64,000 bases of DNA from Balanoglossus misakiensis (taxonomy: Eukaryota; Animalia; Hemichordata): the NCBI GenBank assembly GCA_040954595.2, contig CM082586.2:5752509-5816508 (forward strand), given 5' to 3'. How positions within the stretch are numbered: the first letter of the stretch is position 1; each line of letters begins with the position of its first letter. The notes under the pieces are model-generated. The model was given only the letters and a program-made list of their open reading frames with translations. It was not told the origin of the DNA and did not search any database. The position numbers were made by a program, and so were the translations under genes. Positions 35,896 to 61,426 of the stretch are shown here, piece by piece.

Positions 35896-38800
35896 ATGGT
35901 GTCTGGTGCTCTGATTGTAAGTGATAAATGGGGTCCCCTGACCGATGGCGACGTAGCGTCAGCCGTCCGACTTCTGTCCTATCAGATGCGTATCCTCGGT
36001 CTGGAGGCGCACTGCACTGCCATTAAAGTCAGCAGTGTCGAGTACGAGGAAGCCAATCAGCTCGGCGTGACGTTACACCTGCCGAACCCCGTCGGACGGC
36101 TGCGACTGAGAGAGCCGCATCCCGATTGGCTCTTGATGCACAAGCTGTACTTCCCCGACCTATCAGCTCAGCAGAACATCAAAGTGATCTTTGGATTCGG
36201 CTTGACAACGTGCGATGCCGCTGCAAAAATTCGCAAAGATCTCTTCCCCCAGGCCAGGCTGTACTTGGTCAATCTCTGGCCCTATGATATTTTGAGGCCA
36301 AGCTACATCAGATGCACTGGAGATGAATTCATGAGCCGCATCGAACGCACGATAATTGACTGCGTTGAGGCAAACGCCATATTATCGATAGGCTTTAACA
36401 CATACCTGTACCACTCTGGTCAATACCAAACAAGTTCTGAAATAGTCTCAAAACATTTCCAAGTACCTCCACTACCGGACGATCGATACTTTTCACTGCC
36501 GCGCGCGGACTTTGATCTTGACGATGTTGAACCCTATCGAGTTCTATCCTATTACGAAGACCACTTTATTAGGGAGTTCCACATCGTCAGCCGTTTCGCA
36601 GACGTCCTCCGCTCACTGAAAGAAACGTTGAAGAGAGCAGTGACCTGGAAGATCATCGGCGTACCCAGTGGCCTGGAGAAGAAACTGAAGGAGCTGCTGA
36701 CGCCCGACCTGCATTCCGTTCTGGAGACCGCCCCACCACTCCCCGTGGAAGCGGTCGACGAAGAAATGAGAAACTCGCGACTCATTTATGTCCCGAAAGA
36801 TGCCATCAACTCGCGGAGCCTGGCGCTCAACAGCATGGCGTACGGGGTGCCGTGCCTGGTGCCCGCGGAATCCGACGTGCACGTGATACTCAACCAGCAC
36901 GTGCGAAACATTGAGAAGTACATGGTGGACGAAATGCGAGACCTGCTGTCGGTCAAGAACAAAATACGTCGATTCATCCAGAAGCCGTTCAACCCCAGAT
37001 ACAGGGCTTCGGAAGTTCGGCGATTCCTTCACTCTTCGTCGACCCAAAGTAAACAGGATTTGAAGAGAGGGTTTATGAGACTGATAAGGCCTGACCAACT
37101 TGAAGGTGAGAGAGAAGAACTTGAATGTGATACACATAACACAATGGTCAAAATTACAGCTTATGTCCCCCTAAGGGACACTGCACGTTCAGTGCCAATT
37201 ACGGCCAAATCTATGATTTTTGTTTTTGCTACTTTGCGTTCTCTGACGCCAACAGTTATCATTGGTGCTTGATCTTCAAAACTTTGATTTGTCCTCTCAA
37301 CAGGTATCCGACTAACCCGTACCGAAGCTGCAAGCATTTCAGTGCGAGTTAAAGACCCCTTTAGCAACAAATACTTTCGCTACAAACTTAAAGCAATCAG
37401 AAAGCCTTGTAAGTACATATACATCAGTGTACTACCCAGAATACTGGATTGAAGGGTATATGGAATATGGCAAAAAAAGTCGCATCATTGTCAGATATTA
37501 AGGGGTTTTCAGTTGCAAAAATTCAAAAGCAGCTATTTCACATTTCCATGTTTTCCTTATTTAGTTTTCCTTTCAATGTTCATCCCTCAGACGAAGCTAC
37601 TGTCCACCTGAGCATCAAAAGCGGAATCCCGCTGCCTGAGCGAGGGATGGACGATGTAGACGACGACCTCTTTGGCAAGGACAGGCCGGAATTCAATAAA
37701 TGCATGGAGAAGATGGCGGGCCTGCATCCCAAGCTTGACGGCAAACACTTCCACCGGCCGACCACTCGCTTCATCATGCAGCCCAAAACCGTGGAGGCCC
37801 TGGACGCACTGTGGCGGGCATACGAGAAGAACACGCTGTCGGATATTGTGGACGAAGTCATACTGACGTATGAAATCATGGAGGAAATCGGAGCAATGTA
37901 CTTGAAAATGGAAGTGGCGCTGGACTTGAAAGAGTATGAACTTTGCCGGAAAGAGTTGATGTTCGAGAAAGGTGAGCGCGAGTGCTTGTGGCTGGCCGGG
38001 CATCAAGATGAATGTCATGTTTTGTACCCAAATGATGGTATTCCCACTTTGAATACATCAAGTTAAAGAATGCAAATATTTTCCTCACCCGAGGGCCCGC
38101 TTCAGTTAAGTATACAACCATATCCAAAAGTAACTTTCGCAGCCAAATATATGAAATTTCAATCTAGAAACTTGCTCATGATTGAAATAGTGAGATTGAT
38201 GAATGTCAGCAGATTTCATGATGCTAGGTTGTTTGTTTTTGTTCTGAAAATTGTGTTCTTGTCTCCGCCAGTGTCAAGATGGAAGTTTGAACGCCGACGA
38301 AGCGCATCCGACATGGATACCATTGTTATACCCAGAGACGCCCGGTACCGATGGTACTACCAAGAGGAGGAGAAGACGGGGTTGGAATCGGCGAGGTCCT
38401 TGACAGACGTGTACCTGATGTCGGCGAAGAGAAACGCGAAGCTCGCGCAGCTCACCTTCGAGGAAGAGCTGGAGATGATGAAGCATCCCATCCCCGACCC
38501 CAAGTACAACGTCTACGACATGATCAAGAAGAAGCTGATCGACGACAACCTGCGACTGCAGAAGGAGCTGAGGGAGCTGAAAGAAACCGAGAAGGTGCTG
38601 GAAGAGGAGGGTAAAGATATCGACGAGGAGATCGTGCAGATCAAGGCCAACATCAAGAAGCAGCGGGAAGACCACCGCAAGAGGGAAGAGAAACTGAAGA
38701 AGGAGATCGCCCAACTGAGACGGGAGAAGGCCGAGTACGAGAGGCTGGAGGCCGAAAACAAGCGACTGGAGAAGGAGATTGTGGTGCGCATCCAGGAGGT

Positions 38801-40155
38801 CCACGATATGGAGAACAGCAATGAAGACAGTGAGACACAGATTAAAAGACTGAAGGAGCAATTGGAGGCAAAAACAAAGGAACTGGAAGAGGAATTCATA
38901 GCAGCAGCATCAGTTCAACGTAAGGGAAATCGCATATTATCAAACCTAACATCTGTTTGTTCTAACCTGCTATAAAACAAACGAGAGTTTAGTCTACTTT
39001 TGTGGTTGCTGTTTGTCAAAAAATGATGAGAAGGGCACATATGACTTACAGGCTCATGAGCTTAAATTTGCTGTCCTCAAAATATTTTCCAATTTTCTCA
39101 GATAGTCTCTGATAGACTTTAACAGTGTTACAGTGACATTTATTCCCAAAAAATTACATGTAAACAATTTTCAGATATTCTTCACCATTTCACCCCTGGT
39201 TCCTTCTATAGAGGTCCAACCTTACCATAGACAATCGTGGATTTGCACTGAACCATGGTTGTGAAAGGGCAAAGGAAAGCTAATGGTAATTGTTTCTGTT
39301 ACAGGTGAACCTCCTATGCAGGGTGTCAGAAAGTTTGCCGAGGAGGGCTCGGAACAAAACCAGTATCGGGGCCCGAGTGGCATAGCGATCAACTACAACA
39401 ACGAAATCGTCATGGCCGACTACAACAACCACAGGCTGCAGATCATCGGCGCGAATTACGAATGTCGACACGTGATTGAGCCCAGCGGGTTTCCCAAGCC
39501 GATGACGCCTCGAGACGTGGCTGTATCCGAGGACGGTCGTTACTTCATCAGTGACGACAGCAACAAGCAGATAGTCGTGTGCATGGAAGACAACAGTGTG
39601 GTCGCCACCTTCGGTCAGGCCGAGGGACTCGACCCGCACGGCGTGGCGCTGACCAAGGACAACTACCTCCTGGTGGCAGATCCCAGCAAAGACTGCATCA
39701 GCAAGTACTCGCTCGAAGGGAAGCACGTGCTGGACATCGGGAAGTCGGGCAACGGCCGGTGCCAGTTCCGGTCGCCCAAGTCGATCGCCGTCACCAGCAA
39801 GAATTTCATCGTGGTGTCCGACTGCAAGAACCAGCGCCTGCAGCTGCTCAGCGCCGACGGCATCTTCATCACACTGCTGAACGGCGACAGCACCAAGGCC
39901 GGCTCGGCCGAGTGCTGCAAGGAGCAGATGGATCCCTACGGCGTGGCGGTCGACAGCCGCGATCAGATATACGCCGTCGACTACGCGAACAACATCGTCA
40001 AGGTCTACGGGCAGGAAGGGTCGCTGATCGAGAACCTGGGTTGGTATCAGCTCATCAAGCCGTCGTTTGTGGCGCTGCGGTACGAGAATCCTGAAACGCC
40101 GACCATGGTCGTGTCGGAGTTTGAGCGCAACAACTACAAAGTGTTCCTGTTGTAG
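35896..40155 (+). CDS. Multidomain protein: GT4-type glycosyltransferase-like domain + TRADD-N-like domain + coiled coil + NHL-repeat beta-propeller (5 exons, 1064 aa)
   Basis: Exons 35896-37105, 37304-37408, 37591-37971, 38272-38919 and 39305-40155, all GT-AG, phase 1, total 3195 nt. Exon 1 is GT-B/GT4-like (LIVSDKWG..; PDWLLMHKLYFPDL; SRLIYVP..ALNSMAYGVPCLVP). Exon 3 resembles TRADD-N-like domains (TVEALDALWRAYEKNTLSDIVDEVILT..MEVALDLKEYELCRKEL). Exon 4 carries an E/K-rich heptad coiled coil. Exon 5 has six NHL blades (GPSGIAIN..ADYNNHRLQI; TPRDVAVS; DPHGVALT; SPKSIAVT..SDCKNQRLQL; DPYGVAVD; KPSFVAL). There is an upstream acceptor at 35867-35868 and AATAAA at 40172-40177. Confidence 0.9.
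39181..39272. mobile_element. Second copy of the ~90-bp MITE, in intron 4 of the GT4-NHL gene
   Basis: TTCACCATTTCACC...GAGGTCCAACCTTACCA...AACCATGGTTGTGAAAGGGCAA aligns by eye with 31670-31762. Confidence 0.5.
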
Positions 40156-40171: not shown

Positions 40172-40177
40172 AATAAA
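40172..40177 (+). promoter_or_regulatory. Candidate polyadenylation signal AATAAA of the GT4-NHL gene
   Basis: AATAAA 16 nt after the stop codon, followed by GT-rich sequence. Confidence 0.45.
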
Positions 40178-40346
40178 AAAGCCAACCTCCGAAGTCTGGT
40201 TTGTGCATTCGAAGTCTGGTTTGTGCAGTCAAACTGTTGTAAACTTGATGATGATTCAAAGTCGACCCTACAACTTTGAACATTGGCAGTTGTGTTCGGG
40301 GGAGCTCACAAACTCATAAATCACCTCAAAGAAGGTGGTAGCTAGA

Positions 40347-40782
40347 GTGAACTTGAATCAAGTTTCTGCATGTGCTATCGTATTGTGATAGCCTTCATGG
40401 TGATTATCAAATACAGTGTTCTGTGAAGGTTCTTCGTGTTGTAGATATCTAGATCTAGATTTTTGGATGGTGAACTTGAATCAAGTTTCTGGTTTTTGTA
40501 CAAACCTACCAACTTGATGCAGTCAGGTCAGTGATTGATACTAGTGAACATACTCGGGTACATTAGGAGAGAGATATGTGCCTGGCAGGCAGAAAAGTGA
40601 AATCCTTCACAATCTGATAATACATCATTGTGTACTTAATATACAGTCATTACCAGGCACACATGACTGTGATGAGATACACTACACACGTGCTATCGTA
40701 TTGTGATAGCCTTCATGGTGATTATCAAATACAGTGTTCTGTTCTTCGTGTTGTAGGTATCTAGATCTAGATTTTTGGATGG
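40347..40782. repeat. Local near-identical direct duplication (~99/93 bp) with a 22-bp flanking direct repeat
   Basis: 40372-40470 matches 40690-40782 except for one 6-bp indel and one substitution. GTGAACTTGAATCAAGTTTCTG occurs at 40347-40368 and 40470-40491. Confidence 0.9.
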
Positions 40783-46116: not shown

Positions 46117-47145
46117 ATGGGCGACTCGGGTAACGCGGACGATGGCAGCAAGAACAGGAAAAACGGTGACAACCCCACAAATACGGTTGATTACTGGACG
46201 CGCGCCATGGTGCAGAACATGAAGGAGGAAGCGCTGCTCGACCGAAAGATCGGGAAAATCGAGAAGGAGCACTCGCAGATCATCATACAGATGACCTACA
46301 CCCACCGACAGCTCACCGACAGACTCAAGCTGGTCAACTGGTACCACGAGAAGAAGAAAGAGCGCGAACGCGAGTCGCGCTCCAGCAGCGACACGTCGTC
46401 CAGCAGCGGCGGCAGCAGCCAGAACTCGCTGGACTTCCGCGACTTCAAGTCGGAACTGCGGGAGTACTGGGAGTGGAAGGAGCGGGCGGAGATGCGGCGG
46501 GGCAAGAAGCACAAGCCCACGCTGGAGCCGGAGCTGCGAGAGCGAATGAAGCTGGAGATGAACTCCCTGCGACGGCCGCAGCCGCCGATACTCCCGCCGC
46601 TCATCAAGCCCAGCTTCATGTACCGGCAGTGGAAGAGGAAGAACAAGAAACTGATCAGGGCCAACCCGAAGTATCTGTTGGAGAAAAAGAAAATGTACCT
46701 CATAGCCGAAGATGCCGAGGAGAAACAAAGGCGCGCTCAGGCTAACCAGGACAAATCAAATCGTGGAAAGTCTACAGCCACGAAAAACAGCCAAGGCGAG
46801 ATTCAGTTGAAACGCCAACAAGTGCCTGCCGGGAAAGCGCTAAACTTTAATACAGAAAACAATAAGGGCAGATTGCCAACCCTGGAGGAAAATGACATGG
46901 ATGAATCGGACACCGAGGTGGATGGGATCCGGCGAAGCACGGTGGTGGCCGCGGGCGGAAGTGCGCGACGGTTCTCCGGCCACAAGACCGCGGCTCTCTT
47001 CAAAACTCGGGCCGAAGGAAGCCAGTCGCTGGCCATACCCAGACCGGCCAGTTCAACGGAGACAGTGACGGTCATCCCGTTGACTCCATCCAAAGACAGC
47101 AATCACGGTCTTAACGTGATTAGAGCCACGACTTCAATTACATGA
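46117..47145 (+). CDS. Uncharacterised 342-aa protein with a single coding exon; N-terminal coiled-coil motif weakly reminiscent of CCDC190, rest basic/disordered
   Basis: 1029-nt ORF with strong GC3 coding bias against the AT-rich background, start context AAAATGG, and a CpG-rich upstream region (about 44400-46050). Motif: NMKEEALLDRKIGKIEKEHSQIIIQMTYTHRQL. Confidence 0.75.
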   Translation: MGDSGNADDGSKNRKNGDNPTNTVDYWTRAMVQNMKEEALLDRKIGKIEKEHSQIIIQMTYTHRQLTDRLKLVNWYHEKKKERERESRSSSDTSSSSGGSSQNSLDFRDFKSELREYWEWKERAEMRRGKKHKPTLEPELRERMKLEMNSLRRPQPPILPPLIKPSFMYRQWKRKNKKLIRANPKYLLEKKKMYLIAEDAEEKQRRAQANQDKSNRGKSTATKNSQGEIQLKRQQVPAGKALNFNTENNKGRLPTLEENDMDESDTEVDGIRRSTVVAAGGSARRFSGHKTAALFKTRAEGSQSLAIPRPASSTETVTVIPLTPSKDSNHGLNVIRATTSIT

Positions 47146-49531: not shown

Positions 49532-50441
49532 GGATAATGTACGAGTGGAGTGCAATCGTTCAATATCTGAACGATTGCACGACACGAGTACATTATCCGG
49601 CTTACAACACGTCGCAACATCTGTGATCTTGATATATGCTAAACAACTTCTCAATCACATCAACCAATCACAAGCGTCGCAAAATACACCTGCCAGGGTG
49701 TATGACTCATTTCGATTGGATACTTGTCAGCCATGGCATTTGTCACGTGGTCATTGAGGTGCCACGTTTCCATCATCATTCGGAACTCAACCTTCGACAG
49801 ACAAACACCATGGCCGAAAGTAGCGACGAGCACGTGCTTTTCATTACCCAGAGCACGTTCCGACACCCAAACGAAAGCGAAGGTGATGACGGTGGCGATA
49901 TGGACTGGATTTTCCAAGATTTTGATAGCCTTATCGAAGATAGCGTACATAACCCAACGGTCACGGAAAGTGACTTGGCGAAAATGCAGCCCCCACTACA
50001 CACATCCTCTTCTGTAAGTAGCAGCTCTCTTTTCAGCGTACAAGTCTCGAGCAACAGTTCGAAGTCAGCAAAGTGCTTCAAGGAAGTTTTGGTACGTCGA
50101 AAAAAAATCAAGCTTTCAGGTGAATCCGTGTGTGAGGTAGAAACGAACCCCTAACCAAAGGTTGACCCCTGCAGCGCAGAGATCACGACAAAGAAAGATG
50201 GACGAACCAAGTGTGTGCACCTGGAAGCAGTTCTTCCCGCCGGAGGCAGCATATCCTTCAAAATGGATAACAACTAATTTGCTTTGTATTTTTTTTACCT
50301 CCTGTCAAAGCTATCTTGTTTGTTGTAGTGAATCTTATTATGTCAGGTGCAGTGCAATATCCAGATATTGCACTGGTACCAGTGCATTATCATAGATAAT
50401 GTCCCAAGAGAACAAAGAGTCTAGCACATGTAGTGTTGTAA
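49532..50441 (+). mobile_element. Palindrome-bounded non-autonomous element, possibly a Crypton (tyrosine-recombinase transposon) deletion derivative
   Basis: Left hairpin at 49532-49598 and right double hairpin at 50350-50401, both with GTGCAAT/ATTGCAC cores. The internal ORF starts at ATG 49810 (MAESSDEHVLFITQSTF..) and is interrupted by a stop at 50152-50154. The family assignment is inference. Confidence 0.4.

Positions 50442-51523: not shown

Positions 51524-61426
<9,903 letters not shown>

What the first reader, a model, noticed from the sequence alone, without database searches (positions are those of the whole stretch)
35896..40155. Modular glycosyltransferase-like / TRADD-N-like / coiled-coil / NHL protein: candidate invertebrate immune sensor-adaptor
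Seen: splicing five exons gives one 1064-aa ORF joining a GT-B/GT4-like domain, a ~125-aa module, a long coiled coil and a complete six-blade NHL propeller. Established: GT4 'conflict' glycosyltransferases and TRADD-N-like domains co-occur in expanded immune/apoptotic proteins of cnidarians and basal deuterostomes, often with NACHT/Death/TPR partners. Coiled coil + NHL is the C-terminal half of TRIM-NHL proteins. Inference: this looks like a TRIM-NHL scaffold whose RING/B-box has been replaced by a GT4 + TRADD-N effector/adaptor head. Ligand binding by the propeller could then be coupled through coiled-coil dimerisation to TRADD-N-type signalling. The separate ORF calls in the track hide this architecture.
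Basis: partly seen in the sequence, partly recalled or inferred. Interest (0 to 1): 0.8.

Follow-up and report, generated by a model that had tools for sequence, protein, structure and literature searches.

The report
Dead glycosyltransferase fused to NHL propeller
A gene likely from an acorn worm is predicted to splice five exons into one protein that joins a sugar-transferase-shaped domain lacking its usual catalytic residues, a likely TRADD-N adaptor domain, a coiled coil and an NHL propeller; a similar layout is already listed for amphioxus, and the protein likely works as a non-enzymatic sensor scaffold inside the cell.

Summary
Five GT-AG exons, all joined in phase 1, give a 1064-aa ORF. 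RefSeq models of a Ptychodera flava orthologue (72% identical) and a Glandiceps talaboti orthologue match it; only the latter carries the NHL end. Exon 1 is a GT4-conflict domain (Pfam; GT4 fold, Z 28.6). Exon 3 is TRADD-N-like (Atlas 0.95, TM 0.74 on the orthologue). Exon 4 ends in a coiled coil and exon 5 is an NHL propeller. The layout is not unique: 13 of 56 relatives carry GT4 plus NHL, and Kaur et al. 2021 list GT4+TRADD-N+beta-propeller in amphioxus. The reading needs three corrections. (1) The GT4 is likely dead: its clade lacks the catalytic His (0 of 29) and the ribose-binding Glu (0 of 29) that a sister clade keeps (38 and 42 of 42). (2) The TRADD-N Gly-Ser signature, present as Ser/Cys in 46 of 56 family domains, is lost in this orthologue trio. 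(3) The GT4-TRADD-N head is the constant part and NHL is one of several tails, which fits poorly with a re-headed TRIM. An immune role is inferred only; no expression data were available. Verdict: new variant of a known kind, interest 0.4.

The parts
35896..37105 (+). Coding exon 1 (aa 1-403): GT-B/GT4-conflict domain, predicted pseudoenzyme (Leu127 at the His position; Asn305 and Asn312 at the acidic positions of the donor-binding loop)
   Evidence: Pfam PF20706 E 2e-11; AF2 pLDDT 89.3; GT4 structures at Z 28.6-27.5; residue columns
37304..37408 (+). Coding exon 2 (aa 404-438): 35-aa linker between GT4 and TRADD-N
   Evidence: 83% identical to P0001 and 40% to P0007; GT-AG, phase 1
37591..37971 (+). 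Coding exon 3 (aa 439-565): TRADD-N-like (RRM/ferredoxin-like) domain; Gly-Ser signature replaced by Pro495-Thr496
   Evidence: Atlas on the orthologue 0.95 / TM 0.74; AF2 pLDDT 96.3; 1f3v rank 5, 1f2h Z 5.6; motif count
38272..38919 (+). Coding exon 4 (aa 566-781): conserved 85-aa segment with an RRxSxS-type motif, then a coiled coil of about 130 aa
   Evidence: 82% / 41% identity for aa 566-650; heptad test 1 of 1000 shuffles and motif in all three orthologues
39305..40155 (+). Coding exon 5 (aa 782-1064, stop): NHL beta-propeller with six blade motifs, of the TRIM-NHL type, without the LIN41 arginine crown
   Evidence: PF01436 E 9e-27; TRIM71 E 3.9e-35, TRIM2/3 and Brat also match; blade motifs
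40172..40177 (+). Candidate polyadenylation signal
   Evidence: AATAAA 17 nt after the stop codon
35869..35895 (+). Likely 5' untranslated part of exon 1 behind a pyrimidine-rich AG acceptor; upstream non-coding exon(s) not located
   Evidence: Sequence: acceptor-like site and an in-frame stop before the ATG; P0001 starts at the same Met

Best explanation
This gene, likely from an acorn worm, is predicted to encode one cytosolic 1064-aa protein in which a likely catalytically dead GT4-fold domain and a likely TRADD-N adaptor form a constant head, and a coiled coil plus NHL propeller form a likely swappable tail, so it would act as a non-enzymatic sensor scaffold, likely in innate immunity. Shown: exon structure, orthologues, domain folds for exons 1 and 3, and the missing catalytic and signature residues. 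Inferred, step by step: (1) the propeller face, which varies strongly among paralogues, binds the ligand, and probably not RNA in the LIN41 way; (2) the coiled coil dimerises or clusters the heads; (3) the head passes the signal by protein contact, through partners other than the classical TRAF2 site; (4) the dead GT4 serves as a binding, decoy or regulatory module rather than glycosylating a target; (5) tails were exchanged by phase-1 exon shuffling, since every domain is its own phase 1-1 exon.
For: Gene model and orthologues. GT4 fold. Pseudoenzyme: among 71 GT domains the tree splits 29 (this clade) from 42 (sister clade, P. flava) with support 100 in a quick tree. His column 0 of 29 against 38 of 42; Glu column 0 of 29 against 42 of 42; acidic column 4 of 29 against 42 of 42; loop Gly 0 of 29 against 42 of 42. 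The register of the two clades is confirmed by a profile-profile alignment. HMM alignments to glycogen synthase 4qlb and 9v0l place this Glu at the second Glu of EX7E (weak E-values 0.008 and 1.9). That Glu, the His and a Lys/Arg pair are described as needed in GT4 enzymes (PMC9883506, PMC8760489 passages). TRADD-N. Family: 13 of 56 exon-3 relatives have GT4 plus NHL, and 22 of 47 sister-clade rows do; 20 of 20 looked up are P. flava (12) or G. talaboti (8). Variable tails behind GT4-TRADD-N in print: ankyrin, TPR, DED, AIG GTPase, LRR, Bcl-2, propeller. Blade-flanking positions mostly 3.0-3.8 bits against a mean of 1.97 in 37 propellers. TRIM71 uses these positions for RNA; Arg precedes the blade Pro in 4 of 6 TRIM71 blades and 0 of 6 here.
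Against: There is no functional or expression evidence for an immune role; the link comes only from the company these domains keep in print. This gene looks like a stable one-to-one orthologue across two acorn-worm genera with no second copy in the window, which fits a housekeeping role as well as an arms race. The P. flava model has no NHL and the G. talaboti model has only a short coiled coil, so steps 1 and 2 are not universal even among orthologues. The control clade is tighter (52% against 29% mean identity), comes from one species, was found with one query, and is itself non-canonical (Asp shifted by one, Gln where Arg is usual). Residue mapping rests on alignments and strand position, not on a residue-level superposition. 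PDB fold searches do not single out TRADD-N among ferredoxin-like folds.
Confidence: 0.55

Rival explanations
1. The same pseudoenzyme scaffold, but this conserved single-copy member has been co-opted to a non-immune job (for example a phospho-regulated cytoskeletal, ciliary or germ-line scaffold), unlike its fast-turnover paralogues.
For: One-to-one orthologue trio with support 100; 72% identity to P. flava; only P0001 was found as a close relative in two searches; blade P+1 residues are the same in 5 of 6 blades as in G. talaboti; a conserved RRxSxS-type motif; lost TRADD-N signature.
Against: All its relatives belong to the GT4/TRADD-N expansions that Kaur et al. interpret as immune; conserved members of immune families often stay immune (own knowledge). 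Both homologue searches warn that finding few relatives is weak evidence.
Confidence: 0.22
2. The GT4 domain is an active glycosyltransferase with a rebuilt active site, and the protein is a ligand-gated effector that glycosylates invader or host molecules, as the first reader and Kaur et al. propose for the family.
For: The two-domain GT4 fold is complete and confidently predicted. The glycine-rich N-terminal loop is partly kept (Gly18 in 21 of 29). The donor-loop segment is conserved among the three orthologues. One Glu is dispensable in some GT4 enzymes.
Against: The His, both acidic positions and the Gly before the usual Arg are all absent, and no conserved polar substitute stands in those columns across 29 domains.
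Confidence: 0.12
3. The protein descends from a TRIM-NHL gene whose RING/B-box was replaced, and keeps TRIM-NHL behaviour: RNA binding by the propeller and post-transcriptional control.
For: The best solved-structure matches of exon 5 are TRIM71, Thin, TRIM2/3 and Brat. The order coiled coil then NHL is TRIM-like. Death+TRADD-N+coiled-coil+propeller and TRIM-labelled TRADD-N+propeller proteins are listed in amphioxus and coral.
Against: No RING, B-box or filamin hit in any of the four large exons scanned and no CxxC motif in the whole protein. The LIN41 basic residues are missing and the propeller is net acidic (28 K+R against 36 D+E). Coiled-coil length is unstable. The head is the constant part in the family tables. 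Brat-type RNA binding uses other residues and was not tested.
Confidence: 0.08
4. The main product stops early in exon 5, as in the P. flava model, and the NHL is a minor isoform or a separate unit.
For: P0001 ends 8 residues after the last junction; a possible weak internal donor lies near 39321 (sequence).
Against: Exon 5 is fully open here, in phase, with GC3 0.83 and a poly(A) signal behind it. It has no start codon of its own before the first blade apart from Met787. The G. talaboti orthologue and many paralogues carry the NHL in the same chain.
Confidence: 0.05

Closest known systems
GT4-GTase + TRADD-N (DEDD2 clade) proteins of cnidarians, amphioxus and hemichordates (Kaur et al. [quoted passage not shown]
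   Same: Same domain order and nearly the same length; same lineage-specific expansion pattern; GT4 precedes TRADD-N with a variable tail.
   Different: The paper treats GT4 as an active effector, and the passages read do not mention dead GT4 domains. Here the GT4 lacks its catalytic residues and the TRADD-N lacks the uS signature. The amphioxus sequence could not be fetched, so its propeller type, coiled coil, catalytic state and orthology are untested.
TRIM-NHL proteins (TRIM71/LIN-41, TRIM2/3, Brat, Mei-P26)
   Same: C-terminal NHL propeller behind a coiled coil; TRIM71 E 3.9e-35.
   Different: No RING, B-box or filamin domain; no LIN41 arginine crown.
Vertebrate TRADD N-terminal domain (PDB 1F3V, 1F2H) and DEDD2
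   Same: Four-stranded RRM-like sandwich; Atlas neighbours are TRADD-like_N clusters including DED-TRADD-N proteins.
   Different: No Death or DED domain in this protein. The position of Ser67, the TRAF2 contact, is Thr after Pro.
Retaining GT4 enzymes (MshA, BshA, PimA, ManT, sucrose-phosphate synthase)
   Same: GT-B fold over the whole domain, Z 28.6 (6kih) and 28.2 (3c4q), rmsd 3.6-3.8 A over about 367 residues.
   Different: About 10% identity; conserved His, EX7E glutamates and the Arg/Lys pair not found at their positions.

Membership tests
GT4-conflict (PF20706) domain family | Pfam score above the curated cut-off over the whole model | tested here: met
   43.9 bits against 26, model positions 1-375 of 385
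GT4-conflict (PF20706) domain family | Two-Rossmann GT-B fold closest to GT4 structures | tested here: met
   AF2 pLDDT 89.3; top VIA rows are GT4 enzymes, Z 28.6
Catalytically competent retaining GT4 enzyme | EX7E motif, above all the ribose-binding second Glu | tested here: not met
   Asn312; 0 of 29 in the clade against 42 of 42 in the sister clade; mapping
Catalytically competent retaining GT4 enzyme | Conserved His after strand 4 of the N-terminal domain | tested here: not met
   Leu127 after strand E121-126; 0 of 29 against 38 of 42
Catalytically competent retaining GT4 enzyme | Arg/Lys pair after the first strand of the C-terminal domain | tested here: inconclusive
   The loop after E214-219 is acidic with no Gly-Arg, but the sister clade also lacks the Arg and no superposition was available
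Catalytically competent retaining GT4 enzyme | Sugar transfer activity | not testable with these tools
   Needs an assay
TRADD-N superfamily (DEDD2/TRADD-like) | RRM-like alpha+beta sandwich with a four-stranded sheet | tested here: met
   AF2 pLDDT 96.3, four strands; Atlas TM 0.74/0.81 and 0.73/0.78 to TRADD-like clusters for the 71% identical orthologue domain
TRADD-N superfamily (DEDD2/TRADD-like) | Profile match to PF20694 or PF09034, or a clear best match to solved TRADD-N | tested here: inconclusive
   No Pfam hit for exon 3; paralogue P0002 E 0.16; 1f3v E 0.022, rank 5, highest TMq 0.46; 1f2h Z 5.6, rmsd 4.4, 107 aligned, tied with other folds; Atlas feature score 0.95
TRADD-N superfamily (DEDD2/TRADD-like) | uS (Gly-Ser/Cys) motif in the beta2-beta3 turn | tested here: not met
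   Pro-Thr here, Leu-Thr in P0001, Arg-Asn in P0007; but Ser/Cys in 46 of 56 family domains (motif). The family is TRADD-N; this member is atypical.
TRIM-NHL proteins | RING and/or B-box | tested here: not met
   No such Pfam hit in exons 1, 3, 4, 5; no CxxC in 1064 aa
TRIM-NHL proteins | Coiled coil | tested here: met
   Period 3.52, 1 of 1000 shuffles
TRIM-NHL proteins | C-terminal six-blade NHL propeller | tested here: met
   PF01436, six blade motifs, TRIM71 E 3.9e-35; by sequence only, not folded
LIN41/TRIM71-type RNA-binding NHL | Basic upper surface with Arg before the blade prolines | tested here: not met
   0 of 6 against 4 of 6 in TRIM71
TRIM-NHL proteins | Descent of the coiled-coil/NHL part from one TRIM-NHL subfamily | not tested
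   No TRIM sequences were held for a tree; the Atlas did not hold the query

The most novel reading that the evidence does not exclude
Acorn worms have split their bacterium-derived GT4 conflict domains into a catalytically competent clade and an old, expanded pseudoenzyme clade, both mounted on a TRADD-N/coiled-coil chassis with exon-shuffled, hypervariable NHL or other tails. The dead GT4 is an integrated decoy or a nucleotide-sugar/glycan sensor that pairs with or gates active GT4 paralogues. That would be a sensor-executor immune receptor system built on a glycosyltransferase fold instead of an NLR.
Probability: 0.15. Interest if true: 0.8.

Novelty: new variant of a known kind. Interest (0 to 1): 0.4.

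Why it matters
It corrects a standing assumption. GT4 domains of invertebrate TRADD-N proteins are read in print as active effectors, yet a whole acorn-worm clade (29 of 29 domains examined) lacks the catalytic residues while a sister clade keeps most of them. That gives a ready paired test (dead against live GT4 from one animal) for what these widespread, never-assayed domains do. The one-domain-one-exon, all-phase-1 structure also offers exon shuffling as a mechanism for tail exchange beside the retrotransposition that Kaur et al. proposed. The layout itself is not new, and nothing here shows an immune function, which caps the interest.

Tried and rejected
No whole genome is held, so paralogues in this organism could not be counted. 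No RNA holder was listed. The first splice attempt was off by one base and was corrected. A word-based homologue search with the TRADD-N region found only the query among 272 candidates. tblastn of exon 1 and of a sister-clade protein against plasmids gave no match, and a scan of genome contigs gave 45 pattern matches, none confirmed; so no bacterial GT4-conflict control was obtained. The complex prediction of exon 1 with exon 3 gave no verdict (score 0.00, alignments not used). The Atlas did not hold exon 3 or P0007. Foldseek gave no match with E <= 0.001 for exon 3, and no Z >= 8 in the wide search. The careful tree did not finish; a quick IQ-TREE run is quoted. The NHL FastTree groups this gene with P0007 (1.0) and P0048 (0.91) but has no TRIM outgroup, so origin was not judged. 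Literature searches found no paper on a catalytically inactive GT4-conflict clade or on this family in Ptychodera: 3 listed; 20 of 44 listed; 9 listed; 0; 0. The library lacks most subscription papers. The S. kowalevskii poly(I:C) paper (PMC10210618) has no mention of glycosyl, NHL or TRADD in its main text or in the one supplement file held; its gene tables may not be in that file. Sequence and exact-word look-ups in earlier findings gave nothing. Rows dropped before counts: 7 isoform or cluster mates (P0004-6, P0063-66), GT hits under 330 aa, TRADD-N hits under 95 aa or 40 bits, NHL hits under 240 aa and P0082.
Full report
Observation. Exons 35896-37105, 37304-37408, 37591-37971, 38272-38919 and 39305-40155 join through four GT-AG, phase-1 introns into 1064 codons plus a stop, followed by AATAAA at 40172. 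Introns are 182-385 nt and 35-40% GC, while GC3 in the four large exons is 0.63-0.83. No genome was available and no RNA could be laid on the gene, so the junctions rest on orthologues. P. flava XP_070534350.1 (P0001, 787 aa) aligns at 72% through all four junctions, including the low-GC exon 2 (83%), but stops a few residues into exon 5. G. talaboti XP_077990569.1 (P0007, 927 aa) carries GT (44%), TRADD-N-like (52%) and NHL (60%) in one chain, but has only about 30 aa of coiled coil. The three form a clade with support 100 in a quick tree of GT domains. The window is therefore likely from an acorn worm closer to Ptychodera than to Glandiceps (inference from identity).

Domains. Exon 1 scores above the cut-off for GT4-conflict, folds with pLDDT 89.3 and matches GT4 enzymes over its length (Z 28.6 to 6kih, 28.2 to MshA 3c4q). 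Exon 3 has no Pfam hit but folds as a four-stranded alpha+beta sandwich with pLDDT 96.3. The 71% identical domain of P0001 has TRADD-like_N clusters as its nearest Atlas neighbours by features (0.95; ten of the ten best share the family or clan) and by structure (TM 0.74/0.81). Against the PDB the evidence is weaker: TRADD-N 1f3v is rank 5 (E 0.022, highest TMq 0.46), and 1f2h has Z 5.6, tied with many ferredoxin-like folds. Residues 650-778 are a coiled coil (period 3.52; 1 of 1000 shuffles). Exon 5 is an NHL propeller of the TRIM-NHL type (TRIM71 E 3.9e-35) with six blade motifs; it was not folded.

Family. A full HMMER search with exon 3 gave 57 relatives. Of the 56 new ones, 13 carry both GT4-conflict and NHL at E <= 1e-5; many of the rest are fragments or have other ends. 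All 20 that I looked up are P. flava (12) or G. talaboti (8). A second, P. flava clade, found with the second GT domain of P0047, has NHL in 22 of 47 rows and a more distant TRADD-N-like module by profile alignment. No second copy lies in this window. In print, Kaur et al. 2021 (PMC8195603) describe GT4 preceding TRADD-N in cnidarians, amphioxus and hemichordates. I read sections 8 and 11 whole, passages elsewhere, and term searches in the supplements; file 4 was cut when stored and I saw 30 of 176 GT4-GTase places. [quoted passage not shown] Behind the GT4-TRADD-N head they list ankyrin, TPR, DED, AIG-GTPase, P-loop, LRR and Bcl-2 tails. The layout is thus a known kind. The amphioxus sequence could not be fetched, so orthology and propeller type are open.

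The GT4 is likely a pseudoenzyme. GT4 enzymes use an EX7E motif (the second Glu binds the ribose), a His in the N-terminal domain, and an Arg/Lys pair; mutating them lowers or abolishes activity in ManT and TviE, though one Glu can be dispensable in some enzymes (passages of PMC9883506 and PMC8760489). Among 71 GT domains, this gene's clade (29) has His in 0 and Glu in 0, against 38 and 42 of 42 in the sister clade. The neighbouring acidic column is 4 of 29 against 42 of 42, and two loop glycines are 0 of 29 against 42 and 41 of 42. Here the residues are Leu127, Asn305 and Asn312. HMM alignments to glycogen synthase and to 9v0l put the sister clade's Glu and this clade's small residue at the second Glu of EX7E, but those matches are weak (E 0.008 and 1.9). 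Limits: the sister clade is tighter (52% against 29%), from one species, and itself off-canon; no bacterial control was obtained; no assay exists. Even so, no conserved polar residue replaces the lost ones. I put the pseudoenzyme reading at about 0.8.

Adaptor and propeller surfaces. The TRADD-N signature is a tiny residue plus Ser (sometimes Cys) in the beta2-beta3 turn, the TRAF2 contact in 1F3V. Ser or Cys stands there in 46 of 56 family domains, which supports the family's TRADD-N identity, but this gene has Pro-Thr and its orthologues Leu-Thr and Arg-Asn. Signalling through the classical contact is therefore doubtful for this member. In the propeller, the positions flanking the blade prolines carry TRIM71's RNA-binding residues (passages of PMC5908797, matched to the TRIM71 motifs). 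TRIM71 has Arg before the Pro in 4 of 6 blades and this protein in 0 of 6; it is net acidic. Across 37 family propellers, 10 of the 12 positions directly flanking the prolines have 3.0-3.8 bits of entropy against a mean of 1.97, while the residue after the Pro is the same in 5 of 6 blades as in the G. talaboti orthologue. Surface positions vary more in any family, so this is suggestive, not a test of selection.

Mechanism. Most likely (0.55) the protein is a cytosolic, non-enzymatic sensor scaffold. The chain starts directly in the first GT strand, with no leader. The propeller would bind a ligand, the coiled coil would cluster the heads, and the dead GT4 plus atypical TRADD-N would recruit partners or act as decoy. 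Each domain is one phase 1-1 exon, which makes exon shuffling a plausible way to exchange tails. The exon structure, folds and missing residues are shown; ligand, partners, dimerisation and the immune role are inferred. Rivals: co-option of this conserved copy to a non-immune job (0.22), an active enzyme with a rebuilt site (0.12), a re-headed TRIM-NHL that binds RNA (0.08), and an NHL-less main product (0.05).

Earlier notes of this scan. Two unreviewed AI notes on other pieces of the same genome (e1-10616732, e1-10616720) describe the same chassis with a dead GT4 and IFIT-like or ZU5-UPA-DED tails. I saw them after my own residue counts. They agree with my reading but are not independent evidence, and I could not check their loci.

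Verdict. A real gene with a correctly described architecture, and a member of a known kind of invertebrate GT4/TRADD-N protein. The added points are the predicted dead GT4 clade beside a more intact one, the lost TRADD-N signature and the shuffling-ready exon structure. I found none of these in the searches made, within a library that lacks most subscription papers. New variant of a known kind; interest 0.4.

Noticed in passing
P0001 (XP_070534350.1) C-terminus; window 39305-39330: The P. flava orthologue model ends 8 residues into the last exon, so it has no NHL. It may be an alternative isoform, a nonsense allele or an assembly error.
   Followed up: partly
P0067-P0112: A P. flava sister clade of GT4-conflict proteins keeps the His and an Asp/Glu-X6-Glu motif instead of EX7E, and many carry one or two extra 130-aa copies of the GT N-terminal part in front of the full domain; these are candidates for the active enzymes.
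   Followed up: partly
P0047 (1427 aa): One P. flava model holds a dead-clade GT4, a TRADD-N-like domain and then a sister-clade GT4 in one chain; either a true dead-plus-live fusion or two merged neighbouring genes.
   Followed up: no
window 38272-38520 (aa 566-650): An 85-aa segment after TRADD-N is 82% identical to P. flava and holds an RRxSxS-type basophilic kinase / 14-3-3-like motif kept in all three orthologues (the motif label is recalled, not from a call).
   Followed up: partly
P0014 (XP_077996817.1): A G. talaboti member has an N-terminal DED before GT4, TRADD-N-like and NHL, linking the family to death-domain signalling.
   Followed up: no
window 46117-47145 (+): A 342-aa single-exon, basic, low-complexity ORF in a GC-rich patch with no Pfam hit; likely a real gene of unknown family.
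   Followed up: partly
window 49633-50154 (+): A 173-aa open frame with a Ser/acidic-rich part and no Pfam hit.
   Followed up: partly
window about 61150-61390 (-): An exon of an arrestin-domain gene (PF00339, E 8e-9).
   Followed up: partly
window 40399-40460 and 40690-40780: A near-duplicated stretch of about 90 bases downstream of the gene, and a short tandem duplication at 40190-40230 (seen).
   Followed up: no
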